Shown: one piece after another, positions 4,211 through 19,259 of the stretch
Position numbering within the stretch: the first letter of the stretch is position 1
Layout of the letters: each line of letters starts with the position of its first letter
From: a virus
Lineage: Duplodnaviria > Caudoviricetes
Virus record (IMG/VR): IMGVR_UViG_3300048574_000532
Location: 1-51,275 of that record
Direction: 5' to 3' (one strand)
DNA: 51,275 nt
The notes under the pieces: generated by a model
What the model saw: only the letters and a program-made list of their open reading frames with translations
Database searches by the model: none
Told to the model about the DNA's origin: nothing
Made by a program: the position numbers and the translations under genes

Positions 4211-4915
4211 ATGGCATTGTGCCAACGAGAAGGACGATTCAAAGCCCTCGTCACCGACGTGATCGTAAAGGAGTGCGGCCCGAACAACCTCTGTGCGGCC
4301 GAATTCTTCTTCGACATCGCCGAAGAGCGCTTCGAGAGCCCGGAAGGGCAAGCTCCCATCTGGAAGGACGCGAGCGCCGAGAAGCTCTCCATCACCCACA
4401 CCTTCTGGCTGGAGAAGAAGGACGGGTGCTTGAACGACATCAACATTGCCATGCTGCGCAAGGCCACTCCCTGGGACGGCCTTGAACCCGGCTCCCTCGA
4501 ACACCTCGCGGGCAACACCGTCGTGCAAATCGACGTGGTTCAGGATGACAAATACAAGGCGGGCCGCTGGATCGTGCGGTGGGTCTACCACGAGAACGAC
4601 ACGGGCAGGGCGCCGCACAAACGGGCCAGCGTCGAAGAGAAGCAAGCGCTGACAAATCGCCTCGGCTCGAAGTTCCGGGCGCTGGCGATGGCGCAAGGGC
4701 TGCCCGTGACGCCGCCCGCACCCGTGCCCAAGGGCGACCCGCTCCGGTTCAACGCGCTTCGCTCCCGGTACTTGGCGGCGGACGCCGACACGGACCCGGA
4801 GGAGCGCGAATTGGAGTGGCGCCGCCTGGTGAAGCGCGTGGGGGGCCGCTATACGGCCGAGCTCACCGAGGAGGAGTTGAACGAACTGGAAGCGGAGATG
4901 CAGATCCCGTTTTAG
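4211..4915 (+). CDS. Putative ssDNA-binding protein (DUF669-like, acidic C-terminus ending IPF)
   Basis: Follows Sak4 as phage SSBs commonly do; acidic tail ...EAEMQIPF; AAGGAG RBS. Confidence 0.5.
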   Translation: MALCQREGRFKALVTDVIVKECGPNNLCAAEFFFDIAEERFESPEGQAPIWKDASAEKLSITHTFWLEKKDGCLNDINIAMLRKATPWDGLEPGSLEHLAGNTVVQIDVVQDDKYKAGRWIVRWVYHENDTGRAPHKRASVEEKQALTNRLGSKFRALAMAQGLPVTPPAPVPKGDPLRFNALRSRYLAADADTDPEERELEWRRLVKRVGGRYTAELTEEELNELEAEMQIPF

Positions 4916-8547: not shown

Positions 8548-10756
8548 CCTCGACGAGAAGTACAACCTCGGACTCGTGACGGGCATCCCCTCGGGGGTGT
8601 GCGTGCTCGACCTCGATGCGGGCCACAGCCTGCGCGAGGACCAGGTGCTCCCCGATACGCCGTGCGTCAAGACCGGTTCGGGCGGTGGACACTGGTACTT
8701 CAAGCATCCCGAGGACTTTGACCTTCGCAACAGCGCGGGCAAGCTCGGGCCGCACATGGACATTCGGGGCACCGGCGGGCAAGTCGTGTGGCCCGGTTCC
8801 CTGCACCCGAAGACAGGCAAGGTGTACGAGTGGATTATTCCTCTCGACGACATGGAGCTCGCTCCCCTACCCTCTTGGATTGTCCGCGCGATTCGGCAGG
8901 ACCCCGAGAAGAAGCTCTATCTTCTGCCCCCCCCCAAGCCCAAGGGCAAACCGAACTCCGAATGGGGTCAAGCGGCCCTCGTGCGCGAAGCCTACGATCT
9001 CGGGATGGCCGAGGAAGGAACACGCAACCATGCCTTGAACAAAGCAGCCTTTAAGATCGGGCAAGTCGTGGCCGGGGGCTCCCTCGACATGCACGAGGCC
9101 CGCGAGCGCCTAACGAACGTGGCGCTGCAAATCGGGCTCGAACCCAAGGAAGTCGAGGCGACCTTCCGCAGCGGCTTCCACAAGGGCTACTCGCAGCCGC
9201 GCTACCCCGACCCCAAGCGCGATGGCGGCATCGTCAACGACGCCCAGGGCGATAAGCCGTCGATCCTCGTGCCGGGTGAGCACATCGACGCCGAGGGCAT
9301 GCGCATCGAGCAGGGCAACGACACCTTCGCCGACCAGGTGCTCGACACCCTGCCCGAAGGCCAGCTTTACCGCCGCGATCTCCTGGCGGGCGTCTTCTCG
9401 GGCGCCCAAGGGCACCGCATCTGGCACAACGCCACGCCCGAGCTCATGCGCTACATCACGGACCAGCACGTGCGCCTGGGTGCGTGGGAATACAACAAGC
9501 GCGAGCAGACCAGCCGCTACAAGTACAAACCCTCCACCGGCGACCAGGGCCGCATCGTCCTGAGCGTCGCGCACATGCACCCGAGCATCCTCGAAGTCAA
9601 GACCTTCACCCATTACCCCATCTACCTGCCCGGATTGGTGAGGGCCAAGCAAGGCTACAACGAGGGCGGCGTGTACCTCGACTTGCCCCCCGACCTCGCC
9701 GACATCGAGCCCATCCTGGAGCCCGGCGCCTGCCGCGCATGGTTCAAGGACCTCCTGTGCGATTTCCTCTTCGAGGACGATGCGTCCTTCGACAACTACA
9801 TGGCGCTCCTGTTCACGGCCATCCTCGCCCCCGCCATCCCCGGCAACCGGCCGTTCTTCTACATCAACGCCGCCGTGCCGCGCACGGGCAAGTCAAAGCT
9901 CATCGAGGAAGTCGCCGGCGAGATCATCCTCGGCCGCCAGACGCCCGCCCTGCAAGTGGGCTCGCGCGAAGAAGAGCGCGTGAAGCAGCTTGGCTCGGCC
10001 GTGCTCTGCGGCGAGACCCTCATGCACCTCGACAACATCTCGCGCGAGCTAAACTCCGCGGCGCTGGCCTCGGCTCTCACATCGAGCATCATCGCCTACC
10101 GCCTGCTCGGCGAAAACAAGGTCGCGAACCTGCACAACAACCTCATCATCTGCGGCACCGGCAACAACGTTCAGTTCTCGATGGAAATCGCCAAGCGCAT
10201 CCTGCCCACGACCCTCGTGACCCTCGACATGCACCCCGAGCGCCGCACGGGCTTCAAACACCCCAACATCCGCGCCTACGCCCAAGCCACGCGCCGGCAA
10301 TCCCTCGCCCACCTCCTGGGCGCCATCGAAATCGCCAAAATGGAGGGGCTCGACACCATCAATACCCCGCCCATGGGCGGCTTCGAGCCTTGGACCTGCA
10401 CCGTGGGCGGCGTGTGCATCGCCAACGGCTTCAACCGCATCCTCGGCAACCAACCCGACTTCCAATCCCAATTCGACGAGGAAACCGAACAACTCACGCA
10501 CTTCACCGACCGCTGGGCCGCCGAACTCGCTACCGACACATGGGTTACCCCCATCCAACTCGTACGCCTGATCGCGGACACCGACCTACTCCCCCGCGTC
10601 CAGGAAGGCGCCAACCTCTGGAGCAAAGCCGCTCGCATGGGCCGCTTCTTGAAGCAGTACCGCAATTCCCCCGTGGGCAAATGGCGTATCCTCGCCCGAG
10701 TCAAAGGCAACGGTCGGGAATACAAGCTCCTGCCTTCGAAGGAAGTACGGGGCTAG
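8462..10756 (+). CDS. Bifunctional DNA primase/polymerase with C-terminal P-loop ATPase (helicase-like)
   Basis: NLGLVTG..SGVCVLDLD, KTGSGGGHWYF, DIRGTGGQVVWPGSLH, GTRNHALNKAAF, PRTGKS, HLDN, TGNN. Confidence 0.88.
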   Translation: MKFIRLEGKKPVDANWTQTNWLSPDAIADLDEKYNLGLVTGIPSGVCVLDLDAGHSLREDQVLPDTPCVKTGSGGGHWYFKHPEDFDLRNSAGKLGPHMDIRGTGGQVVWPGSLHPKTGKVYEWIIPLDDMELAPLPSWIVRAIRQDPEKKLYLLPPPKPKGKPNSEWGQAALVREAYDLGMAEEGTRNHALNKAAFKIGQVVAGGSLDMHEARERLTNVALQIGLEPKEVEATFRSGFHKGYSQPRYPDPKRDGGIVNDAQGDKPSILVPGEHIDAEGMRIEQGNDTFADQVLDTLPEGQLYRRDLLAGVFSGAQGHRIWHNATPELMRYITDQHVRLGAWEYNKREQTSRYKYKPSTGDQGRIVLSVAHMHPSILEVKTFTHYPIYLPGLVRAKQGYNEGGVYLDLPPDLADIEPILEPGACRAWFKDLLCDFLFEDDASFDNYMALLFTAILAPAIPGNRPFFYINAAVPRTGKSKLIEEVAGEIILGRQTPALQVGSREEERVKQLGSAVLCGETLMHLDNISRELNSAALASALTSSIIAYRLLGENKVANLHNNLIICGTGNNVQFSMEIAKRILPTTLVTLDMHPERRTGFKHPNIRAYAQATRRQSLAHLLGAIEIAKMEGLDTINTPPMGGFEPWTCTVGGVCIANGFNRILGNQPDFQSQFDEETEQLTHFTDRWAAELATDTWVTPIQLVRLIADTDLLPRVQEGANLWSKAARMGRFLKQYRNSPVGKWRILARVKGNGREYKLLPSKEVRG

Positions 10757-10988: not shown

Positions 10989-12950
10989 ATGGATACAGGT
11001 CTAGATACTGCCCCCCATGCCATCATCGTTAGGCAGGGGAAGATACTGGATTTCATTGATGGCCTTACTCAGCGTCCCGATACGCCAGAGGAGTATGTCC
11101 GTCAAGAAATTGCAAAGTCGTTGGTGCGCGAGTATCGCTACGCCAAGTGCGATGTTGAAGTTGAGTTTGTTGTGCGCGTGGGGACTCGGAAGCCGCGGGC
11201 GGACTTGGTAATATTCCCACCCCAGACGCCACACGCGCAAGACAAAGCTCGCATAATTGTGGAGTGCAAAGCCTCTACCGTCAAGGCCGCAGACAAGAAG
11301 GACGGAGTTGGGCAGTTGAAAAGCTATATGGCCGCTTGTCCAAATGTTGAGTACGGCATGTGGACCAACGGCATAGAACGCTTCTGTTATCGCCGTTTAG
11401 TTAGGGCTGGAATGGTAGAGGTCGAGGAAGTTCCCGACGTACCTGAATTCGGTCGCGGGGATGAAGACATGGATCGGCCGCGCTTCGATCAGCTTAAGCC
11501 TGCGACATCAGATGCTCTCCTCTTTGCTTTTCGTCGATGCCACAACTACATCGCCGGCAACCAAGGTCTCCAGAAACCTCAAGCTTTTTGGGAGCTGCTT
11601 AAACTTATCTTCTGCAAGATCCATGATGAACGCCACAACGACGAAATTGAGTTCTTTGCTGCCGCCACCGAAAGACACGGGGCGATTGGAATCCTGAAGG
11701 TCCAGAAACGAATTGAGGCTCTGTTTACGCAAGTCAAAGATGATTACCCGACAATCTTCAAGCAGTCAGAGGCGATCGATCTAAAGCCTGTCGTCCTCGC
11801 TTACTTGGTGTCGCAGCTCCAGATGTATTCTCTCCTGGAGAGCGATATCGACGTAAAGGGCCGAGCATATGAAGAAATCGTCGGCTCGAATCTTCGTGGA
11901 GATCGTGGCGAGTTCTTCACACCCAGAAACGTGTGCCGCATGGCTGTCGCCATGCTAGATCCTGGCGAAAAGCAGTTGGTGCTTGATCCTGCCTGCGGAA
12001 CAGGTGGGTTCTTGATCACAGCAATGAACCATGTAATTGAGAAGATCCGGCATGCGGAAATGGGCAAATGGGGCAACAAGTTCGAAAGTGCAGAGAGTGC
12101 CATACAAGAGCGAATCCGGAAATTTGCAAACCGGTTCATAATTGGCATGGATTTCAATCCAGAGTTGGTGAAGGCCACCAAGATGAATATGGTCATGAAC
12201 AATGACGGTGCGGGGGGGCTCTATCAAGCTAACTCTCTTGAGGCCCCCGCCACTTGGGATCCCGCTCTGCATAAGCGTGGCTTAATGGGTAAAGTGGATC
12301 TGCTGTTTACGAATCCGCCGTTCGGTTCTAAGATTCCAGTCACCGATCCATCCATTCTGGAAAAGTATGACCTCGGCCATTCCTGGAGCTACAACAAGAG
12401 TCAAGATCGATGGGTTAGGGCAGACTCCGTGCAGAAGTCGCAGCCACCCGAAATTCTGTTTATCGAGCGTTGTGTGAAACTCTTGAAACCAGGAACGGGG
12501 CGAGTCGCAATAGTGTTGCCAGATGGCATCCTGGGCTCACCTGGGCTCGGGTACGTTCGCGATTGGATCTTACGCAACACGCGAGTTTTGGCGAGTATCG
12601 ATTTGCACCCTGACACCTTTCAGCCCTTCGTTAGCATTCAGACGAGCATCTTGGTGCTTCAACGCAAGACAGACGAAATGATAGCCCTCGAAGAAGCGGC
12701 CGGAAGAATCAGCGACTACCCTGTCTTCATGGCCGTCGCCAACCATGTTGGCCACGACAAGCGCGGAAACACCAACTATGTGCGCGACCGTAAAGGCAAT
12801 GAAATCATTGAAGAAGTAGAGGAACAAATCAAGGAATGGGAGGATGGCACCTTAGTCTACCGCAGGCAGACGAAGCGCCAAAAAGTACTCGATGACAATA
12901 CGCTTCAGGTTGCGCAGGAGTTCCGCAAATGGCTGTCAGAGCAAGATTAG
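10989..12950 (+). CDS. Restriction endonuclease (HsdR_N-like PD-(D/E)XK) fused to N6-adenine DNA methyltransferase
   Basis: PEEYVRQ...RADLVIF...IVECK...QLKSY...WTNG nuclease domain; GEFFTPR, DPACGTGGF and NPPFG methyltransferase motifs. Confidence 0.9.
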   Translation: MDTGLDTAPHAIIVRQGKILDFIDGLTQRPDTPEEYVRQEIAKSLVREYRYAKCDVEVEFVVRVGTRKPRADLVIFPPQTPHAQDKARIIVECKASTVKAADKKDGVGQLKSYMAACPNVEYGMWTNGIERFCYRRLVRAGMVEVEEVPDVPEFGRGDEDMDRPRFDQLKPATSDALLFAFRRCHNYIAGNQGLQKPQAFWELLKLIFCKIHDERHNDEIEFFAAATERHGAIGILKVQKRIEALFTQVKDDYPTIFKQSEAIDLKPVVLAYLVSQLQMYSLLESDIDVKGRAYEEIVGSNLRGDRGEFFTPRNVCRMAVAMLDPGEKQLVLDPACGTGGFLITAMNHVIEKIRHAEMGKWGNKFESAESAIQERIRKFANRFIIGMDFNPELVKATKMNMVMNNDGAGGLYQANSLEAPATWDPALHKRGLMGKVDLLFTNPPFGSKIPVTDPSILEKYDLGHSWSYNKSQDRWVRADSVQKSQPPEILFIERCVKLLKPGTGRVAIVLPDGILGSPGLGYVRDWILRNTRVLASIDLHPDTFQPFVSIQTSILVLQRKTDEMIALEEAAGRISDYPVFMAVANHVGHDKRGNTNYVRDRKGNEIIEEVEEQIKEWEDGTLVYRRQTKRQKVLDDNTLQVAQEFRKWLSEQD

Positions 12951-14359
12951 TCGCGCCTCCTCCCCCGGCGAAAACTGTATGGCCTTACCACACACTTGAA
13001 CATACAGCGATACCCCTATCCGTGCTATTGGACGGTGATAGACGCTTGGAAGCAGAAACGTACCTCTCTTCTGGTTTTGGCATTCGTGCTGCCATCCAAA
13101 ACAGGGCAGAGGGATGGATCCACTTCAGCGACGTTGCGCGAGTTTGGATGCCAGGCCGCCTAAAAGGGATTCAGGTTACTTCTGAGCATGGAACACCATT
13201 TCTCGCAGCAACGCAAGTATATGATGTGCGTCCGGTCCCACGGAAATGGCTAGCATTGGAGCGCACCAGCGATGCGACCAACAGATTCGTGAGTTCAGGT
13301 CAAATTCTGGTTACTTGCTCAGGCTCCGTTGGCCGTCCAACCCTAGCACACGCGCCCCACGAAGGTGTTCTTATATCGCACGATTTATTGCGTATTGAAC
13401 CATTGGATCCGCAACATACGGGCTGGCTTTACGCTTACTTACATGCACCCGAAGTTCGTGCAATGGCGACCGGTGCAAAATATGGACACATAATCAAGCA
13501 CTTGGAAACCGAACATCTTGACGCGATCCCGGTAGTACAGGTAGACGAGATCACCAGGGCGCATTTCAACACCCAACTGCGGAGAATCCTCGAATTACGA
13601 AACAAAGCATACAGCCTTGCCAAAGAAGCAGACAGGCTTTTTGTGGAGGCCCTTGGCCCTGTGAAATCTACCGCGAAGGAGTATGGATTCGCGGTACGGG
13701 CAACAGACATCCTTCAGGGTCGCCGTCGATTGGAGGCGAACTATCACAATCCTCAAGCGGCTGCTATCTTTATGAAGTTCAAACGCTGGGAGCGCCTCGG
13801 AGATCTTGCATGCCGAGTGTGGTGGATGCCCAGATTCCGACGATACTACGGGGACGATGGACTGCCTTACCTAAGCGCCGATGAGCTCTTTACTGTCAAT
13901 CCATCAGAGAACAAAAGGATTCTAGTTGACCCGGACGATAATCACAAAGACTACTTTGTGAAGCGGGGATGGATCGTCATGGCCTGCTCAGGCCAGGTCT
14001 ATGGCCTCAACGGGGCAGCTGCCTTGATGACAGAGCATCACGAGAATACTTTCTTCTCGCACGATCTCATACGCATCATTGCAGATGAGTCCAAGATTGC
14101 TGCCGGTTATTTGCTGGTCGCCCTTACCCATCAAACCCACGGACGTCCACTTTTGATACGTGCGGCCTATGGCACATCAATTCCGCATCTCGATCCAGCT
14201 GATGTTGCGGATTTTCCGGTTGTTCGGCTAGAGCCTTGCCAGGAATCCACCATTGCAGCACTCTCCGAGGAATCTGCGAAGGCTCGGGCGGACGCGGACG
14301 CGCTAGAGCGGTCGATCGCTTATGACGCAAGCCTGATCATCCGGCGTTTCATGTCGTAA
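12929..14359 (+). CDS. HsdS-like specificity subunit with two target-recognition domains
   Basis: Two repeated halves (RRLEAETY...GQILVTCSGSVG...SHDLLRI and RRLEANYH...GWIVMACSGQVYG...SHDLIRI); overlaps the MTase gene end. Confidence 0.82.
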   Translation: MAVRARLVAPPPPAKTVWPYHTLEHTAIPLSVLLDGDRRLEAETYLSSGFGIRAAIQNRAEGWIHFSDVARVWMPGRLKGIQVTSEHGTPFLAATQVYDVRPVPRKWLALERTSDATNRFVSSGQILVTCSGSVGRPTLAHAPHEGVLISHDLLRIEPLDPQHTGWLYAYLHAPEVRAMATGAKYGHIIKHLETEHLDAIPVVQVDEITRAHFNTQLRRILELRNKAYSLAKEADRLFVEALGPVKSTAKEYGFAVRATDILQGRRRLEANYHNPQAAAIFMKFKRWERLGDLACRVWWMPRFRRYYGDDGLPYLSADELFTVNPSENKRILVDPDDNHKDYFVKRGWIVMACSGQVYGLNGAAALMTEHHENTFFSHDLIRIIADESKIAAGYLLVALTHQTHGRPLLIRAAYGTSIPHLDPADVADFPVVRLEPCQESTIAALSEESAKARADADALERSIAYDASLIIRRFMS

Positions 14360-14408
14360 ATGGACAGTAGGCTACCGGGCGTATGGGGAAAACATAGGGA
14401 GAGACCTT

Positions 14409-15296
14409 ATGGCGGGGCCGCAGTTTGTTAAATACTTCACGCATGTCATTGCTGCACTTAAGAAGCTCGGCAATTCAGGCACTCCTTCGGAAGTGCGTGA
14501 ACTCATAGCACAAGAGTTGAGCTTGACTGACGATGTGCTGAACGAGCAAATGGAGAGCGGTGCCTCGCGCTTTGACAACCAAGTGGCGTGGGCCAAATTT
14601 TACCTGGCAAAAGCTGGCTACATCGACGCTTCGAAACGCGGCGTATGGCGACTTACTGAAGCTGGCTTAAACTCTGCCATGTCAGAGGACGACGCACTGC
14701 GGCTTTTCCAGGATGTTCACAAACAATTCAAGTCGGTTTCTGACGCACCTACCGCTACGTCTGGCGACGATCTTGAGGAAGCTACCGCGCCCGGTGACTC
14801 TGGCATAACGGTGGCTGAGGACTACAAAGCCGAGCTTTTGGACATCATCCGAGCGCTGCCACCGGCCGGCTTCGAACGGCTATGCCAGCGTCTGCTTCGT
14901 GAATCTGGCTTTCAACAGGTCGAGGTGACAGGCCGAAGCGGTGACGGTGGGATTGATGGCAAAGGTCTCCTGCAAATTAATCCGCTGTTGAGTATTCAGG
15001 TTGTGTTCCAAAGCAAGAGATACAACGCTCACACGTCGGTTTCAGTTTCGCAGATTCGGGACTTGCGGGGCGCCATGGCCGGGCGAACTGACAAGGGAAT
15101 CTTCATTACGACAGGGAACTTCACTTCCGACGCACGCAAGGAGGCGCTACGAGAGGGCGTACCTCCTATCGAACTGGTAGATGGGCAGAAGTTGGTCGAG
15201 ATGTTTGAAAGCCTCGAACTGGGGTTGACTCCACAAAAGACCTACGAAGTTGACCATCGCTTCTTTGAGGATTTTGCGCGGTCTCAGGCGAATTAG
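14409..15296 (+). CDS. mrr: Mrr-family (type IV) restriction endonuclease
   Basis: Mrr_N RFDNQVAWAKFYLAKAGYI...RGVWRLTEAG; Mrr_cat FERLC...SGDGGIDG...QSKRY...GIFITT. Confidence 0.9.
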   Translation: MAGPQFVKYFTHVIAALKKLGNSGTPSEVRELIAQELSLTDDVLNEQMESGASRFDNQVAWAKFYLAKAGYIDASKRGVWRLTEAGLNSAMSEDDALRLFQDVHKQFKSVSDAPTATSGDDLEEATAPGDSGITVAEDYKAELLDIIRALPPAGFERLCQRLLRESGFQQVEVTGRSGDGGIDGKGLLQINPLLSIQVVFQSKRYNAHTSVSVSQIRDLRGAMAGRTDKGIFITTGNFTSDARKEALREGVPPIELVDGQKLVEMFESLELGLTPQKTYEVDHRFFEDFARSQAN

Positions 15297-15329
15297 CAGC
15301 CTGTTGAGCCATGGGTGGGGTGATAGGCG

Positions 15330-16211
15330 ATGAACTTCAACGAACTCTTGCTCGGAAAAGGCATTGACCCGCAGAAGGTACTCGTCTTGAGGCACCGTCC
15401 TTCGGAGCCTCAATTCAATGCGGTCCTGCCGTGGCTGGCTGCTGAAAAGCCTGAGCTTTACAACGCATACCAGCAGACCCAGGGCGAAAAGCTTGAAGGG
15501 ACCATGAAATCCCTTGCGCATGTTGGATACGTTGCATCGTTCATCGGACACGCGGCAGGCAAAGCACTCTTCATTGGCTTGTACGCTATAGGCAATTCCC
15601 ATCCCCTCACCTACGAAGAATACTGGAAGCTCCCCGTGCACATTGCCCTCAAGCAACTTGGGATGAGAGGGTTTACAGGAGAGAACCAATCCACTGTCCT
15701 CTGGTTTGACCTCGATATGACTGACTTCTACGCATCTTGGAAAGGAAAGCTGGTCATCGGCTGGCCCCCGCCAGAGCGCTCATGGTGGCGGCGCGCCCAC
15801 CGCAACGACATTTCCGTTCTGGCGGTCCATGAAACTAGTGTTCTGGATGCCGCTATGCCGGACTGGGATGCAATAAACCTCAGCTGGGAAGACCTTCGGG
15901 TATTGCCGTCGCGTTGGAGGTCCGCCATCTCGCAATGGCGCGGCATCTACTACATCTTCGACACATCAGAGGCGAGGGGCTACGTCGGTTCGGCGAGCGG
16001 AGAGGATAACATCCTCGGACGATGGCAAAACTACGCCACCAGTGGCGATGGCGGAAATCGCCTGCTTCGACAACGAGACCCTCGCAATTTCCGGTTCACA
16101 ATCCTGCAGCGGGTCTCGCCGGACATGGAGCCCGCCGAGGTAGTCCGCTTCGAGAACTCCTGGAAGCACCGCCTGCATACCCGCGCCCCATTCGGCCTCA
16201 ACGCTAACTAA
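15330..16211 (+). CDS. GIY-YIG nuclease family protein
   Basis: GIYYIFD...YVGSASG...ILGRWQNY...FENSWK...GLNAN. Confidence 0.85.
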   Translation: MNFNELLLGKGIDPQKVLVLRHRPSEPQFNAVLPWLAAEKPELYNAYQQTQGEKLEGTMKSLAHVGYVASFIGHAAGKALFIGLYAIGNSHPLTYEEYWKLPVHIALKQLGMRGFTGENQSTVLWFDLDMTDFYASWKGKLVIGWPPPERSWWRRAHRNDISVLAVHETSVLDAAMPDWDAINLSWEDLRVLPSRWRSAISQWRGIYYIFDTSEARGYVGSASGEDNILGRWQNYATSGDGGNRLLRQRDPRNFRFTILQRVSPDMEPAEVVRFENSWKHRLHTRAPFGLNAN

Positions 16212-16277
16212 AGGTAAAGTGCCATGACAGCCGAAGACGATCTGGCAGGGCTGCGGAGAAATGCAAGAACACTGGGT

Positions 16278-17153
16278 CTACGTCGACAACTCACCCGTTG
16301 CGCCAAGTTTTTGGGCCAGAACCTCAAATCCATCTAGAAAAAGCCCAATATGGCGCTGTGCGCTCGGGCTTGCCGCCCACACTTCCTCATAAGCCTGACT
16401 GTGGAGGAGTTGCTCGGCATTCCGAATGTCGCTGCGAATAGTTGGGAGCACCGCTTCGAGGCATGTGCTTTGAGGTTCAGGCATCTGCCCCGTCTGAGAA
16501 TAGTACAAGGCAATGGGATAGTTGAGTGTTTGGGCATTCACATCCGCCGTGAAATCGTAGACATCATCCACAGCAAGTTCTAACGAGAAATAACACTTTA
16601 GGAACTGGAGCTTCTCGGTGCAGCCACTATCACTAGGCAAGAGTGACACGGGAAATAGCCCTAGGATCATCTTTTCGTAGACATTATCGAACTGGCTGTA
16701 TCGGTTACAGAATCGCGCGGGGATTTCCCATTCCTTTTCAAGAGCCAGGTACTGGGACTGCACAGCATAGAGCGCCTTGAATTGGTCCAGAGCTTGGCGC
16801 CCGTACGCTTTATGGAGTATCTCCACCAATTCGATAAGAAGAAATCCTGCAGCCTGACTGTACTCAGGAATGTCCCATGGATTGTCAGCGTGGCCGTCTA
16901 TGACTTTGTCCAAGAGCAAGCCATAGACGTTTAGGAGCGCACATAGGTACATCAGATCTGGAGAAGCGTTTCCTCGTGCGTACAGCTCGAAGATGGGCAG
17001 AAAGTTCTTCTCGTAGACGCGAGCCGCTTTTCGAATCAGGCGAGTCTTCAAGTGTGGCGAGAACTTAGCAATTCCAGCGCTATCAAGCGCGCAGAAGACT
17101 TCCGTCGCAAGCTGATGGGAAACTTGTTCAAGTGCGTGAGGGCTGCCCGCCAT
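16278..17153 (-). CDS. Class I isoprenoid-synthase-fold protein; putative ComQ/PalQ-like peptide prenyltransferase
   Basis: Helical protein with two Asp-rich motifs, LLLDKVIDGH...PW and AVDDVYDFTADV; ATG at 17153 overlaps the end of the rSAM gene. Confidence 0.62.
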   Translation of the reverse strand: MAGSPHALEQVSHQLATEVFCALDSAGIAKFSPHLKTRLIRKAARVYEKNFLPIFELYARGNASPDLMYLCALLNVYGLLLDKVIDGHADNPWDIPEYSQAAGFLLIELVEILHKAYGRQALDQFKALYAVQSQYLALEKEWEIPARFCNRYSQFDNVYEKMILGLFPVSLLPSDSGCTEKLQFLKCYFSLELAVDDVYDFTADVNAQTLNYPIALYYSQTGQMPEPQSTCLEAVLPTIRSDIRNAEQLLHSQAYEEVWAASPSAQRHIGLFLDGFEVLAQKLGATGELST

Positions 17154-18432
17154 CGACCATCTTCTCCAGATATTTGAGTCCAAGCTGGCGAGTGGCTTCA
17201 CAGTTGTGGAGGTTTTCAATCCGCAAATCTGGACAATCTCCCGCACAATTGTACTTACAGAAACAGTCTTGACATTCCTGGTACTCAAATACATTCATCT
17301 TCCGCAGGGCGTGGAGCTTCTCCTCGTCCAATAGGAACTTCATCGTCTCAGGGTCAAAGCGACCAATGTCGAAAATCGAAGGATAGCAATCTCGCGTACA
17401 GGAAATCAGTCTACCGTCGGCCGCGACGGTCCAGTTAGGAACACCAACAGCCCCGCAAAAGCACGTCCTAATTTGCTGAAACTTGCTGACATGTGAGTTG
17501 CGGATTTCAACGCCAATGTTGGCCCCGTATTCAAGAGCGGATACCAGCATTTCGGCGTACAGAACTCTGTCCGGAGGCGCAACACTTTGATCTGCACGAG
17601 CGCGTCCATAAGGCGCCAAAGGTTCAAGAGATACCCGTTTGCCCGGGAAGTTCTCAGCGAAGAAGTCCAGAATGGCCCGATAGTGCTTCATACTAAAATC
17701 GGAGATCGTAACACGAAACCCCAACGGCATCCCTTTGTCATAGAAGAATTTGGCTGATTCAAAACAGACTGGGAATGATTGGGAGCCGCTCCGGGTAGGC
17801 CTGTGAAGGTCTTGGATGAAAGCCGGCCCGTCAAGAGATAACGACAAGTTAGTGAAGTGCTTAGCCACAAATTCACGAACAGGAATTCCATAATACCCGT
17901 TCGTTGCCATGGTAAAGGAACATTGCATCGAGTTTTCCGCTGCCAATGTCGTTGCCTCAGCGACAACTTCCTGCAAGAGGCCAAAACAAGCAGTTGGCTC
18001 TCCGCCTCCGAAGAGACTTATCTCGACCGACTCAGATGGCTGTATTGCCTTTGCTTTGAGATACGAAAAATAGGCTGCCAAGAGTGAGCGTGCAAATGCC
18101 GGCGTCATCGTTTGTGTTCTATGGGCGTCACCGGCGGAAAGATAACAGTATCTACACTTTAACGTACAGTCATCCGTCAAAGCTATCGACACCCGTGGCG
18201 TAGCCTGCTTCAGTAGGGAATGCACGGCTATAGGGTCTACCCGCGGATATGACTTCAACCGGGACACAAGGTCGGAAGCTAACCCACTATCAGTAGACGA
18301 TTCTTGAGCAATCCACAACGGAAGTTCGCTATCTGCAAGGGCGAGGTAGCCTCGAAGAGGAGCATACACAAGAACCACAGCAGGATTATTGCTGTGGGGA
18401 ATGAAGAAAACCTCCTCTTCAGCTATTAGCAT
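17128..18432 (-). CDS. Radical SAM/SPASM-domain peptide maturase with probable N-terminal RRE
   Basis: CTLKCRYC, FGGGEPT, ATNG, SLDGP..QD.HR; SPASM motif CFCG...ISC...CQDCFCKYNCAGDCP...C; ~80-aa N-terminal extension. Confidence 0.9.
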   Translation of the reverse strand: MLIAEEEVFFIPHSNNPAVVLVYAPLRGYLALADSELPLWIAQESSTDSGLASDLVSRLKSYPRVDPIAVHSLLKQATPRVSIALTDDCTLKCRYCYLSAGDAHRTQTMTPAFARSLLAAYFSYLKAKAIQPSESVEISLFGGGEPTACFGLLQEVVAEATTLAAENSMQCSFTMATNGYYGIPVREFVAKHFTNLSLSLDGPAFIQDLHRPTRSGSQSFPVCFESAKFFYDKGMPLGFRVTISDFSMKHYRAILDFFAENFPGKRVSLEPLAPYGRARADQSVAPPDRVLYAEMLVSALEYGANIGVEIRNSHVSKFQQIRTCFCGAVGVPNWTVAADGRLISCTRDCYPSIFDIGRFDPETMKFLLDEEKLHALRKMNVFEYQECQDCFCKYNCAGDCPDLRIENLHNCEATRQLGLKYLEKMVDGGQPSRT

Positions 18433-18467
18433 AATATGGATCCGCCAACAAAGCGCAGAAGTCGGGA

Positions 18468-18656
18468 CTACCAGGTACCTGAACTGTCGTTGCAGTCGCA
18501 ACCACAGAAGTTAATGCGGTTGCACCCGTCGCGGTCACATCCGCTCGTTACGGCTGGACTTGGTTCCCAACGAATCTCCACTTGCAGAAGTTCGTCGAGT
18601 TTCGGTTTGCGGGTTACAGTTTGCTTTGTCGATACAGGTGTCTCTCGCTTATCCAT
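18468..18656 (-). CDS. Putative RiPP precursor peptide (5 Cys in the C-terminal core, terminal Trp)
   Basis: MDKRETPVSTKQTVTRKPKLDELLQVEIRWEPSPAVTSGCDRDGCNRINFCGCDCNDSSGTW; AGGAGG RBS 8 nt upstream; ends 35 bp before the rSAM start. Confidence 0.8.
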   Translation of the reverse strand: MDKRETPVSTKQTVTRKPKLDELLQVEIRWEPSPAVTSGCDRDGCNRINFCGCDCNDSSGTW

Positions 18657-18679
18657 TTGGCTATCCTCCTGTGGATGCG

Positions 18680-18708
18680 AATTTACTCTCTTTCTCAGGG
18701 TGTGTCAA
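18680..18708 (-). promoter_or_regulatory. Near-consensus sigma70 promoter of the RiPP operon
   Basis: Minus strand TTGACA(18708-18703)-17 bp-TAAATT(18685-18680). Confidence 0.75.
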
Positions 18709-19259
18709 GTGTTTGGTGTGTTTGGAACGTAGCATCAGATCTCCCTTTAGTGAGTTTGATGATGTTTAGGAGGTTCGTAAGAGGTCTATGCGTGGGGGAA
18801 AGACAGGGTTAGAATAGAACGCAATGCGTCTCTATATATATGAACACGCGCGAAATCTCATAAACACCACCCACCTCACTAACTCAATGAACTTCAGCGT
18901 GCTATCGCAGTCGGGTTTGCCATCAGAACCACGCTCAACCAAGCGAATATCTCCCATTCAACACGCGTGCCAAGCGTCCCACGAAGAGCACGCAATCCGT
19001 TGCATGTTCGTTGCGCTGTTTTGCAGGTTTGAGGCGCAAGGGTGCCACCACAGCCGCCTTGGCCGGCATCGGGCTCGTGCCGTGCTCCCTCGCTTTTTGG
19101 CAGTCCTTGCCGTGCGCGCTCCACAGGCCCAAGAAAAGGCCTCGACAGCACCCGAGCACGTAGCATCTAACGCCTCTCGAAGGCGAAGCGTGCTACTTAG
19201 GCAAGAGGTCGCTGGTTCATGAGCCTTGCACTGCAAGTACTTACAGCGCCCATCGCGTT

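What the first reader, a model, noticed from the sequence alone, without database searches (positions are those of the whole stretch)
16278..18708. Prophage-encoded RiPP cluster: Cys-rich Trp-terminal precursor, rSAM/SPASM enzyme and isoprenoid-synthase-fold enzyme
Seen: a compact minus-strand operon with a near-consensus promoter (TTGACA-17-TAAATT) and an AGGAGG RBS. It encodes a 62-aa peptide (leader ...KLDELLQVEIRWEP; core GCDRDGCNRINFCGCDCNDSSGTW, Cys at 40/45/51/53/55, with C45-x3-N49 and C53-x3-D57), then a rSAM/SPASM enzyme with an RRE-sized N-terminus, then an overlapping DDxxD protein. Known: SPASM rSAM enzymes make sactionine/ranthionine thioethers (for example Cys-x3-Asp by PapB), and ComQ/PalQ-type isoprenoid-synthase-fold enzymes prenylate Trp at or near a peptide C-terminus. 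Inference: the product would be a thioether-crosslinked, Trp-prenylated peptide, an unusual tailoring combination and rare phage cargo. No transporter or peptidase is encoded and the cluster sits in a defence hotspot, so an intracellular or membrane role (anti-phage activity, lysis-lysogeny signalling) is as plausible as a secreted pheromone or bacteriocin.
Basis: partly seen in the sequence, partly recalled or inferred. Interest (0 to 1): 0.88.

Follow-up and report, generated by a model that had tools for sequence, protein, structure and literature searches.

The report
Prophage peptide cassette with prenyl-type enzyme
A prophage carries a three-gene cassette that probably turns a small cysteine-rich peptide ending in tryptophan into a cross-linked, lipid-tagged product, using a radical enzyme and a previously unnamed enzyme family shaped like prenyl-chain enzymes.

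Summary
On the minus strand lie a promoter (18708-18680), an AGGAGG site, a 62-aa peptide (18656-18468), a radical SAM/SPASM enzyme (18432-17128) and a 291-aa protein (17153-16278) that overlaps it by 26 nt.

- **Peptide and enzyme pair:** the peptide belongs to a conserved, uncurated family with core C-x-R-I-x-x-C-x-C-x-C. This core lies beside the enzyme in 33 of 35 close metagenome loci.
- **Third protein:** it matches no Pfam, NCBIfam or PHROG model. It folds confidently (pLDDT 92) into the class I isoprenoid-synthase fold, Z 18 to GGPP synthase and MoeN5. It keeps two Asp motifs.
- **Linkage:** such enzymes occur only in one clade of the rSAM tree, 3 seen and 7 inferred.
- **Peptide ends:** peptides seen beside them end in Trp in 4 of 5 distinct loci (window, L162/163, L019, L242) and in Cys in one (L185). 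Only 1.7% of background small ORFs end in Trp.
- **Setting:** the cassette sits in a low-GC island of a provirus, next to Uzume, Mrr and a type I-like methylase.

Cross-linking and C-terminal Trp prenylation are inferred, not shown. I found no paper on this enzyme pairing. This scan has noted similar trios (with DUF5685) on other DNA.

The parts
18680..18708 (-). sigma-70-type promoter-like site TTGACA-17 nt-TAAATT
   Evidence: 10 of 12 matches; sequence
18665..18670 (-). AGGAGG ribosome-binding site, 8 nt before the ATG
   Evidence: sequence
18468..18656 (-). 62-aa precursor peptide. The leader holds V-E27-I-R-W-E, the counterpart of the family motif E-K-E-V-D-M-G-F. The core is GC40DRDGC45NRINFC51GC53DC55NDSSGTW62.
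   Evidence: Alignment A3 of 28 peptides: C51 and C53 invariant; E27, C45, R47 and C55 nearly invariant.
17128..18432 (-). radical SAM/SPASM peptide maturase, 434 aa. It has a conserved 80-residue N-terminal domain, CxxxCxxC at 89-96 and a 7-Cys SPASM region at 326-411.
16278..17153 (-). 291-aa class I isoprenoid-synthase-fold enzyme (called p3 in this report). Its motifs are D82-x3-D86-x3-D90 and D196-D197-x2-D200-x3-D204. It overlaps the rSAM gene by 26 nt.
15330..16211 (+). context: UzuA (Uzume defence) homologue with a GIY-YIG domain, convergent with the cassette
   Evidence: 2e-76, full length
14409..15296 (+). context: Mrr-type (type IV) restriction endonuclease
10989..14359 (+). context: HsdR_N-N6 methyltransferase (10989-12950) and a type I specificity-like subunit (12929-14359)

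Best explanation
The cassette is a self-promoted moron in a provirus that makes a doubly tailored ribosomal peptide.

1. The 62-aa precursor is recognised through its leader (the V-E-I-R-W-E region). The rSAM/SPASM enzyme then most likely installs intramolecular thioether bridges from the conserved cysteines C45, C51, C53 and C55 onto neighbouring residues of the core C-N-R-I-N-F-C-G-C-D-C-N-D.
2. The translationally coupled 291-aa enzyme (p3) is a class I isoprenoid-synthase-fold protein with two Asp motifs, which would hold Mg2+ and a prenyl diphosphate. It then transfers a host-made prenyl group (C5 to C15) to the peptide, most likely to the indole of the C-terminal Trp62, as PalQ does.

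Shown here: the genes, the conserved pairing of peptide and rSAM, the fold and motifs of the third enzyme, its restriction to one rSAM clade, and the excess of Trp-terminal peptides beside such enzymes.

Inferred: the thioether chemistry, prenyl transfer, the acceptor residue, and any biological role. The product could be a lipidated peptide that is secreted or sits in the membrane and benefits the lysogen.
For: **Peptide and rSAM pair**
- Of 35 metagenome loci whose rSAM is at least 36% identical, 33 hold the core motif within 450 bp. Most of these ORFs have GGAGG-type ribosome-binding sites.
- The window peptide aligns with them (A3).

**rSAM enzyme**
- It passes PF04055 and the SPASM domain cut-offs. 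Its best named hits are PapB and the SCIFF maturase.

**Third enzyme (p3)**
- The AF2 model has pLDDT 92.3 and pTM 0.89.
- All of the 50 Foldseek rows shown are isoprenoid synthases.
- VIA-align gives Z 18.0, rmsd 3.2 A over 247 residues to human GGPPS, and Z 17.4 to the prenyltransferase MoeN5 over residues 2-284.
- The Atlas's nearest clusters are named 'class 1 isoprenoid biosynthesis enzyme'.
- In 33 aligned relatives, D86, D196, D197, D200 and D204 are nearly invariant. They lie at the C-terminal ends of helices 65-86 and 178-199 of the model.

**Linkage**
- The 26-nt overlap with the rSAM gene.
- A p3 homologue lies near the rSAM and peptide in L185, and beside another rSAM in L019.
- A second, distantly related family lies right after the peptide in L162/L163. 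hhalign gives E 1.2e-4 with both Asp motifs in register; the fold gives Z 16.8 to terpene synthases.
- Seven further pairs are inferred from identical longest-contig lengths.
- All 10 linked rSAMs fall in one clade of 30 of 75 tree rows (SH-aLRT 86). None of 19 visible loci outside that clade has such a gene.

**Acceptor residue**
- Peptides beside these enzymes end in Trp in the window, L162/163, L019 and L242 (a viral contig), and in Cys in L185. Among 13,300 background small ORFs, 1.7% end in Trp.
- PalQ is an all-alpha prenyltransferase that is strict for a C-terminal Trp. Its motif residues are reported as D89/D93 and D200/D204 (PMC10853753, passages read).
Against: - No chemistry was measured.
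- p3 matches no Pfam model, including polyprenyl_synt, at E<=1: 0 of 33 family members. A profile of the family finds no solved structure by sequence.
- The first Asp motif is DxxxD, not DDxxD.
- The family has no nearly invariant Gln, whereas the characterised Trp prenyltransferases are said to use a Gln next to the second motif (PMC13290415, PMC12510300, passages).
- The L185 peptide has no Trp at all, so Trp cannot be the family's only acceptor.
- The best structural matches of the L162-type relative are terpene cyclases, not transferases.
- The rSAM scores far below every curated family cut-off (PapB 105.8 against 340), so its reaction type is open.
- The Trp-terminal ORFs in L019 and L242 were picked after the fact from among a few small ORFs.
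- Seven of the ten linked pairs rest on equal contig lengths, not on sequence that I saw.
Confidence: 0.5

Rival explanations
1. The third enzyme does tailor the peptide, but not on Trp. It could S-prenylate a Cys, O-prenylate Ser58/Ser59 or an Asp carboxylate, or act on the free C-terminus. The Trp would then only help binding.
For: The L185 peptide beside a p3 homologue ends ...CGDNSSC and has no Trp. Peptides of the linked clade share the tail D-(x)-S-S before the last residue. The family has no conserved Gln. Earlier scan notes describe Cys-terminated peptides beside DUF5685 and rSAM genes (not checked here).
Against: Four of 5 distinct linked peptides end in Trp, against a 1.7% background. 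Two of them (L019, L242) have no Cys in the core. According to the 2026 review (PMC13290415, passage), all characterised trans-IDS-like peptide prenyltransferases target Trp.
Confidence: 0.2
2. The third enzyme is a terpene synthase or cyclase, or a short-chain prenyl diphosphate synthase, that makes a small isoprenoid. It is unrelated to the peptide, and the linkage reflects shared mobility.
For: The fold alone does not separate synthases, cyclases and transferases. The second motif D-D-x2-D-x3-D also resembles the NSE/DTE triad of class I cyclases (a recalled motif, not from a call). The L162-type relative matches sesquiterpene synthases best.
Against: The gene overlaps the rSAM gene by 26 nt. 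Linkage to rSAM-plus-peptide units recurs in five very different loci and is confined to one rSAM clade. Trp-terminal peptides are in excess. No member matches the polyprenyl_synt or terpene synthase Pfam models.
Confidence: 0.12
3. The rSAM enzyme does not make thioethers. It installs another change: a C-C or C-O cross-link, an epimerisation, or oxidation of Cys to formylglycine.
For: Scores lie far below all curated cut-offs. Non-thioether enzymes also hit: anSME 3.2e-20, DynA 3e-18, HxsB 2.6e-19 and cyclophane formers.
Against: Four cysteines are invariant or nearly so in 28 peptides. The two best named hits are thioether makers. Trp and other aromatic residues are not conserved in the core.
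Confidence: 0.25
4. The cassette is itself an anti-phage or lysis-lysogeny device of the prophage and acts inside the cell or at its membrane, rather than making a secreted bacteriocin or pheromone.
For: It lies in a low-GC island with UzuA, Mrr and an MTase plus specificity pair. It has its own promoter. No transporter or peptidase was found among the ORFs examined between 10989 and 20270. Most relatives are bare two-gene units.
Against: Neither the peptide nor p3 matches PADLOC, and the rSAM shows only generic similarity to pVip (5e-9). Location in an island is weak evidence. The related cluster in L242 has a C1 peptidase.
Confidence: 0.15

Closest known systems
PalQ/PalX of Paenibacillus alvei (C-terminal Trp prenyltransferase; PMC10853753)
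   Same: All-alpha isoprenoid-synthase-fold enzyme encoded beside a ribosomal precursor that ends in Trp. Its Asp pairs are reported at D89/D93 and D200/D204, with the same 4-residue spacing as D82/D86 and D200/D204 here. The enzyme is of similar size.
   Different: PalX has an NHLP leader and the cluster has a histidine kinase and no rSAM gene. Here the leader is different, an rSAM/SPASM enzyme is present and there is no kinase. No conserved Gln is seen. I could not compare sequences directly because no tool gave me the PalQ sequence. A family member beside a Cys-terminal peptide (L185) has no PalQ counterpart.
ComQ/ComX of Bacillus (IPR033965)
   Same: A trans-IDS-like enzyme that prenylates Trp of a small ribosomal peptide. 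The cluster encodes no dedicated protease.
   Different: ComQ acts on an internal Trp and belongs to the polyprenyl_synt sequence family. None of the 33 p3 relatives matches that Pfam model at E<=1. ComX is not Cys-rich and has no rSAM partner.
PapB/freyrasin ranthipeptides and SCIFF/CteB
   Same: An rSAM/SPASM enzyme with a short Cys-rich precursor. These are the best named NCBIfam hits. Like SCIFF, most relatives are bare maturase-plus-peptide pairs.
   Different: Scores are 105.8 against a cut-off of 340 (PapB) and 89.3 against 425 (SCIFF). The core motif C-x-R-I-x-x-C-x-C-x-C matches no NCBIfam peptide model. No prenyl-type enzyme is known in those systems.
MoeN5 (moenomycin prenyltransferase) and GGPP synthases
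   Same: The closest solved folds: Z 17.4 and Z 18.0, covering nearly the whole protein.
   Different: Sequence identity is 10-15%. Their acceptors are a lipid or IPP, not a peptide.
Cys-rich peptide + rSAM/SPASM + DUF5685 trios noted earlier in this scan (e1-4188319, e1-4133266, e1-3969389)
   Same: The same three-part logic: a small Cys-rich peptide, an rSAM/SPASM enzyme and a prenyl-synthase-like protein of unknown function.
   Different: The window protein does not match DUF5685 at E<=10, and only 1 of 33 relatives does, at 5.8e-4. The hosts differ (gut Clostridia, methanogens). Those notes are unchecked AI notes.

Membership tests
Radical SAM superfamily with SPASM domain | CxxxCxxC cluster motif and a PF04055 score above the cut-off | tested here: met
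   C89/C93/C96 are invariant in 18 sequences. PF04055 scores 35.2 bits against a cut-off of 29.5.
Radical SAM superfamily with SPASM domain | C-terminal SPASM domain with 7 Cys for auxiliary clusters | tested here: met
   TIGR04085 scores 36.9 bits against a cut-off of 27. C326, C345, C387, C390 and C396 are invariant; C400 and C411 are at least 90% conserved.
PapB-family ranthipeptide maturase (NF047865) | score above the curated equivalog cut-off | tested here: not met
   105.8 bits against a cut-off of 340
SCIFF maturase (TIGR03974) | score above the curated cut-off | tested here: not met
   89.3 bits against a cut-off of 425
RRE (PqqD-like) leader-binding domain at the rSAM N-terminus | PqqD-like winged-helix domain before the rSAM core | tested here: inconclusive
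   No PF05402 hit at E<=1. The 80-residue N-terminal domain is conserved (F9, Y23, P25, L26 and R27 invariant). The Atlas features search gives only a lead: score 0.88 to a cluster in which 11% of members carry PqqD. No structure was predicted.
Sactipeptide / ranthipeptide | Cys S to C-alpha or to C-beta/gamma thioether bridges in the product | not testable with these tools
   Needs MS/MS and NMR of the product.
Class I isoprenoid synthase fold (IPR008949 superfamily) | all-alpha fold with two facing Asp-rich motifs on helices D and H | tested here: met
   pLDDT 92.3. Z 18.0, rmsd 3.2 A over 247 residues. All 50 Foldseek rows shown have this fold. The Asp motifs lie at the ends of helices 65-86 and 178-199. 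I did not superpose the motifs on FARM and SARM residue by residue.
trans-isoprenyl diphosphate synthase (Pfam polyprenyl_synt PF00348), which includes ComQ | sequence match to the family model | tested here: not met
   0 of 33 family members match at E<=1.
PalQ-type C-terminal Trp prenyltransferase system | precursor ends in Trp | tested here: met
   W62 is the last residue. The same holds in 4 of 5 distinct loci with a p3-like enzyme.
PalQ-type C-terminal Trp prenyltransferase system | NHLP-type leader and a histidine kinase neighbour | tested here: not met
   The peptide has no Pfam or NCBIfam hit. The neighbours are an rSAM gene and restriction or defence genes.
PalQ-type C-terminal Trp prenyltransferase system | sequence homology to PalQ, and a conserved Gln next to the second Asp motif | tested here: inconclusive
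   No tool gave the PalQ sequence, so homology was not tested. There is no nearly invariant Gln among the conserved columns of A2.
DUF5685 (PF18937) | match to the family model | tested here: not met
   The window has no match at E<=10. One of 33 relatives matches, at 5.8e-4. An Atlas structure row gives TM 0.70 over 180 residues.
Provirus cargo in a defence island | phage genes on both sides and defence genes alongside | tested here: met
   IMG/VR provirus record. Terminase, portal, tail fibre and integrase are present. The island at about 11-19 kb has GC 0.50-0.55 against about 0.63 elsewhere. It holds UzuA at 2e-76, Mrr, an MTase and a specificity subunit.

The most novel reading that the evidence does not exclude
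The 291-aa protein and the L162/L242-type protein define a new, rare superfamily of peptide prenyltransferases that act on the C-terminal residue (Trp, sometimes Cys). These enzymes have been recruited repeatedly to unrelated radical-SAM peptide systems. In this prophage the resulting lipidated, thioether-bridged peptide would serve the lysogen at its membrane, as a superinfection or defence factor or as a ComX-like signal for lysis-lysogeny decisions.
Probability: 0.13. Interest if true: 0.9.

Novelty: new variant of a known kind. Interest (0 to 1): 0.66.

Why it matters
Only three kinds of all-alpha (trans-IDS-like) peptide prenyltransferases have been characterised: ComQ, PalQ and the ChrPC P domain (review PMC13290415, passages). 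They are sought after as tools for putting lipids on peptides.

This locus points to two further, sequence-unrelated families with the same fold. They sit beside Trp-terminal peptides and are tied to radical SAM enzymes.

It also defines an uncurated rSAM/peptide family (core C-x-R-I-x-x-C-x-C-x-C, with a sister clade G-C-T-C-I-x-x-E-x-C-C-G-C) that has dozens of members in metagenomes.

Finally, it shows such a cassette as self-promoted cargo in a prophage defence island. That makes a simple three-gene expression test possible.

Tried and rejected
I therefore could not fetch the contigs of the rSAM homologues P0002-P0047 or of the p3 relatives P0063-P0092. I used the search for related loci instead, plus the equality of longest-contig lengths. 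The latter is an inference, not an observation.

**Complex prediction.** Complex prediction of p3 with the precursor gave 'no answer' (score 0.00). It counts neither for nor against binding.

**Sequencing runs.** The look-up of sequencing runs listed no run and no RNA holder.

**Searches that led nowhere**
- The p3 profile found only the starting genome among 401 genomes of the class of G001.
- tblastn of p3 against 50,697 phage records found nothing at E<=0.01.
- The rSAM found only matches of at most 30% identity, in 15 phage records.
- Megablast of 20000-44000 against phages found nothing.
- A scan for relatives of the primase in viral contigs found nothing. I therefore could not compare the island with the same site in related phages.
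- The genome and viral scans with the rSAM alignment gave only distant relatives, at most 31% identical.
- DUF5685 does not match the window.
- The profile of the p3 family found no solved structure by sequence.
- hhalign of A2 against the single L162 protein was weak (probability 6%). It reached E 1.2e-4 only with a profile on both sides.

**Host.** The host organism was not identified.

**Literature.** The searches found no paper that joins an rSAM/SPASM enzyme with an all-alpha prenyltransferase on one peptide. The library is partial: for example, Hubrich et al. on ChrPC/NctPC is not held.
- PMC10853753: I read part 1 of 4 of the full text, plus passages.
- PMC13290415 and PMC12510300: passages only.
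- The other papers: search listings only.

Supplements are closed. Figures S2 and S6 of the PalQ paper (motif alignments) may bear on the motif comparison.
Full report
**What is there**

The window is a complete IMG/VR provirus record of 51,275 bases.
- It has a PadR gene at the left end and an integrase at the right end.
- It has primase, helicase and nuclease genes.
- It has a terminase, a portal, a tail fibre and a giant internal virion protein.
- Its GC content is about 0.62-0.66, except for an island at about 11,000-19,000 with GC 0.50-0.55.

The island holds these genes:
- an HsdR_N-N6 methyltransferase (10989-12950);
- a type I specificity-like protein (12929-14359);
- an Mrr endonuclease (14409-15296);
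- a full-length UzuA homologue (15330-16211; PADLOC 2e-76).

The finding's cassette fills the rest of the island on the minus strand:
- a promoter-like site TTGACA-17-TAAATT at 18708-18680 (10 of 12 matches);
- AGGAGG at 18670-18665;
- a 62-aa ORF at 18656-18468;
- a 434-aa gene at 18432-17128;
- a 291-aa gene at 17153-16278, which overlaps the previous stop by 26 nt.

**The rSAM enzyme**

It passes Pfam Radical_SAM (35.2 bits against 29.5) and the SPASM domain model TIGR04085 (36.9 against 27). CxxxCxxC (C89, C93, C96) and seven C-terminal cysteines are conserved in 18 aligned sequences, and the ATG start agrees with the homologues.

The best named families are the PapB ranthipeptide maturase (2.7e-30) and the SCIFF thioether maturase (2.4e-25). 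All scores lie far below the curated cut-offs, so this is an uncurated family.

The first 80 residues form a conserved domain of RRE size, but I could not show that it is an RRE.

**The peptide is a real precursor**

The protein search found 61 relatives of the rSAM. Forty-six of them are 38-47% identical, and almost all come from metagenomes. The metagenome scan returned 79 loci.

Six-frame reading of these loci gave the following.
- In 33 of the 35 loci whose rSAM match is at least 36% identical, an ORF within 450 bp encodes a peptide with the core G-C-[QNKR]-R-I-[SNH]-x-C-[SGT]-C-[DN]-C-[ND] and the leader motif E-K-E-V-D-M-G-F.
- The two misses are L182, which has the same leader but a variant Cys core, and L194, where no core was found.
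- Most of these ORFs have GGAGG-type ribosome-binding sites.
- The peptide lies downstream of the rSAM gene in 30 of the 33 loci. It lies upstream in L171, L174 and L175, as in the window.

In the alignment of 28 peptides (A3), C51 and C53 are invariant and E27, C45, R47 and C55 are nearly invariant. None of six peptides tested matches an NCBIfam model at a meaningful level, and the window peptide matches nothing in Pfam, NCBIfam, PHROGs or PADLOC.

A sister clade of rSAMs (28-35% identity) pairs with a different core, Y-G-C-[TS]-C-I-x-x-E-x-C-C-G-C-x-x-Q, in 30 of the 79 loci.

**The third protein (p3)**

It has no Pfam, NCBIfam, PHROG or PADLOC match. The word-based search found only the protein itself. 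The exhaustive phmmer search found 30 relatives (E 3.6e-22 to 1.9e-4, 24-36% identity). The family is rare: apart from the starting genome, none of 400 other genomes in one bacterial class has it, and no phage record does.

In 33 aligned sequences (A2), E139 and K161 are invariant. D86, Y135, W142, Y148, P168, D196, D197, D200 and D204 are nearly invariant. These give the motifs F-L-D-x-x-L-D and L-L-x-D-D-I-x-D-x-x-x-D-I.

With this alignment AlphaFold2 gives pLDDT 92.3 and pTM 0.89, all helices.
- The 50 Foldseek rows shown are all trans-prenyl diphosphate synthases, MoeN5 or terpene synthases. The E-values are modest (best 2.0e-4, and only 2 at or below 0.001).
- VIA-align gives Z 18.0 (rmsd 3.2 A, 247 residues) to human GGPP synthase and Z 17.4 to MoeN5 over residues 2-284. 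These values are above the level the tool gives for chance helical matches.
- The Atlas search agrees. It is a separate method, but it also rests on predicted models.
- The two Asp motifs sit at the C-terminal ends of helices 65-86 and 178-199. From recalled knowledge of this fold, that is where the metal-binding motifs lie.

So the fold claim is supported. Membership in the polyprenyl_synt sequence family is not: 0 of 33 members match.

**Is p3 tied to the peptide?**

Directly seen:
- The window itself, with the 26-nt overlap.
- L185. The gene order is rSAM (38% identical), a peptide ending ...CSCDSTCGDNSSC, a BspA-type LRR gene, then a p3 homologue.
- L019, a bacterial MAG. It has a 69-aa ORF with a GGAGGA ribosome-binding site that ends ...YWDQAWDQTW, then a p3 homologue, then an overlapping short rSAM/SPASM gene.

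The p3 profile hit only these two among the 20,492 ORFs of loci L002-L240.

L162/L163 are nearly identical human-gut metagenome contigs whose peptide ends ...CDCNDSSW. There, the second gene after the peptide encodes a 317-aa protein with the same two motifs (L-V-D-K-I-L-D at 94 and I-D-D-I-C-D-Y-M-S-D at 228).
- A pattern for both motifs hits only L019, L185, L162 and L163 among all ORFs of at least 150 aa.
- This protein has its own family of 16. In that family D95, D99, D228, D229, D232 and D236 are invariant.
- It aligns to the p3 profile at E 1.2e-4 (probability 54%) with both motifs in register.
- It folds (pLDDT 92.7) into the class I terpenoid synthase fold, with Z 16.8 to a sesquiterpene synthase and Z 14.9 to the N-prenyltransferase DabA.

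A scan with this family found one viral contig, L242. It has an integrase, a C1 peptidase, an rSAM gene, the 316-aa homologue, a GT-D-like gene, a 54-aa peptide with an AAGGAGG site that ends ...GGWNNSGGGANW, and three more rSAM genes, one of them with a SPASM domain.

Indirectly: seven relatives of p3 or of the L162 protein share their exact longest-contig length with rSAM homologues. The pairs are P0099/P0005, P0067/P0006, P0069/P0012, P0074/P0015, P0104/P0009, P0078/P0020 and P0118/P0008. This is an inference; one or two pairs could be coincidence.

**Tree**

I built a tree of 75 rSAM sequences (IQ-TREE quick search). I left out partial rSAMs under 400 aa and near-duplicate loci, and rooted on 8 sister-clade rows.
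- All 3 seen and 7 inferred linked rSAMs fall in one clade of 30 rows (SH-aLRT 86).
- That clade also holds the Bacteroides caecimuris enzyme (L176 = P0036), whose peptide ends ...CDCDDGTW. Its contig is too short to show what follows.
- None of the 19 visible loci in the other clade-A branches has such a gene.
- The window's rSAM sits on a long branch (1.34) at the base of this clade, so its exact place is unsure.
- The four distinct peptides of this clade lack the fifth Cys of the family and end D-(x)-S-S-(x0-2)-W or -C.

**Acceptor residue**

Of 5 distinct loci with a p3-like enzyme and a visible peptide, 4 peptides end in Trp and 1 ends in Cys. Among 13,300 small ORFs of the fetched loci, 1.7% end in Trp and 2.8% in Cys.

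In the window and L162 the peptide was identified independently, by family homology. In L019 and L242 I picked it after the fact, though each has a strong ribosome-binding site.

L019 and L242 have quite different cores without Cys. This suggests that the enzyme reads the C-terminal Trp rather than the Cys core.

There is published precedent. PalQ is an all-alpha enzyme that is strict for a C-terminal Trp, with Asp pairs D89/D93 and D200/D204 (PMC10853753). The 2026 review states that all characterised trans-IDS-like peptide prenyltransferases target Trp, and that residues added beyond the Trp abolish PalQ activity (PMC13290415).

Against this reading: L185 has no Trp, the family has no conserved Gln, and no enzyme activity has been measured.

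**Mechanism proposed**

The leader is recognised and the rSAM/SPASM enzyme bridges the conserved cysteines; thioethers are the most likely chemistry. The coupled p3 then uses Mg2+ and a host prenyl diphosphate to alkylate Trp62. My estimates are:
- real peptide-plus-rSAM unit: about 0.9;
- p3 acts on the peptide: about 0.7;
- thioethers: about 0.55;
- prenyl on the C-terminal Trp: about 0.55.

**Biological role**

The role is open. The cassette is self-promoted cargo among defence genes. No exporter or peptidase was found among the ORFs I examined between 10989 and 20270.

**Comparison and novelty**

It works like a PalQ/ComQ system joined to a PapB- or SCIFF-type system, but it is a sequence member of none of them (see the membership tests). 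The searches listed under Tried and rejected found no paper on this pairing.

This scan has noted Cys-rich peptide + rSAM/SPASM + DUF5685 trios on other DNA. The window protein does not match DUF5685, so any kinship is at the level of fold.

I rate it a new variant of a known kind.

Noticed in passing
loci L188-L233 (for example L197:2123-2326, L201:5259-5432): A sister clade of the rSAM (28-35% identity) is paired in 30 of 79 metagenome loci with a different conserved peptide. Its leader is ...T-L-x-F-E-E-N and its core is Y-G-C-[TS]-C-I-x-x-E-x-C-C-G-C-x-x-Q. One tested member has no NCBIfam match.
   Followed up: partly
L242:2296-12181 (IMG/VR contig of 49 kb): A large RiPP-like cluster lies next to two recombinase genes. 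It holds a C1 peptidase, four radical SAM genes (one with SPASM), a class I isoprenoid-fold protein, a GT-D-like protein and a 54-aa Gly-rich peptide that ends in Trp.
   Followed up: partly
L019:3033-5998 (bacterial MAG): A 69-aa ORF ending ...YWDQAWDQTW, a p3 homologue, an overlapping short rSAM/SPASM gene (381 aa, no N-terminal domain) and an APH-like kinase follow one another on one strand.
   Followed up: partly
L171:4947-7643: Two rSAM paralogues of this family lie in tandem after one precursor.
   Followed up: no
window 10989-16211: The defence island combines a methyltransferase with an HsdR_N domain, a specificity-like subunit (also hit by the PADLOC 'mad' models), Mrr and UzuA. I saw no separate HsdR motor subunit.
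   Followed up: partly
L144:6981-7382 and L115:about 4388-4540 (large viral contigs): ORFs near distant rSAM relatives end in long Cys-Asp or Cys-Glu repeat strings (CDCDCDRCAC..., ECDCECPEE...).
   Followed up: no
L162:900-3475 and 8710-10684: The gut-metagenome relative of the cassette lies between IS66-like ORFs (my reading of the ORF order and sizes, not tested) and an HD-domain protein. This suggests a mobile or conflict-system setting there too.
   Followed up: no
I did not check it.
   Followed up: no
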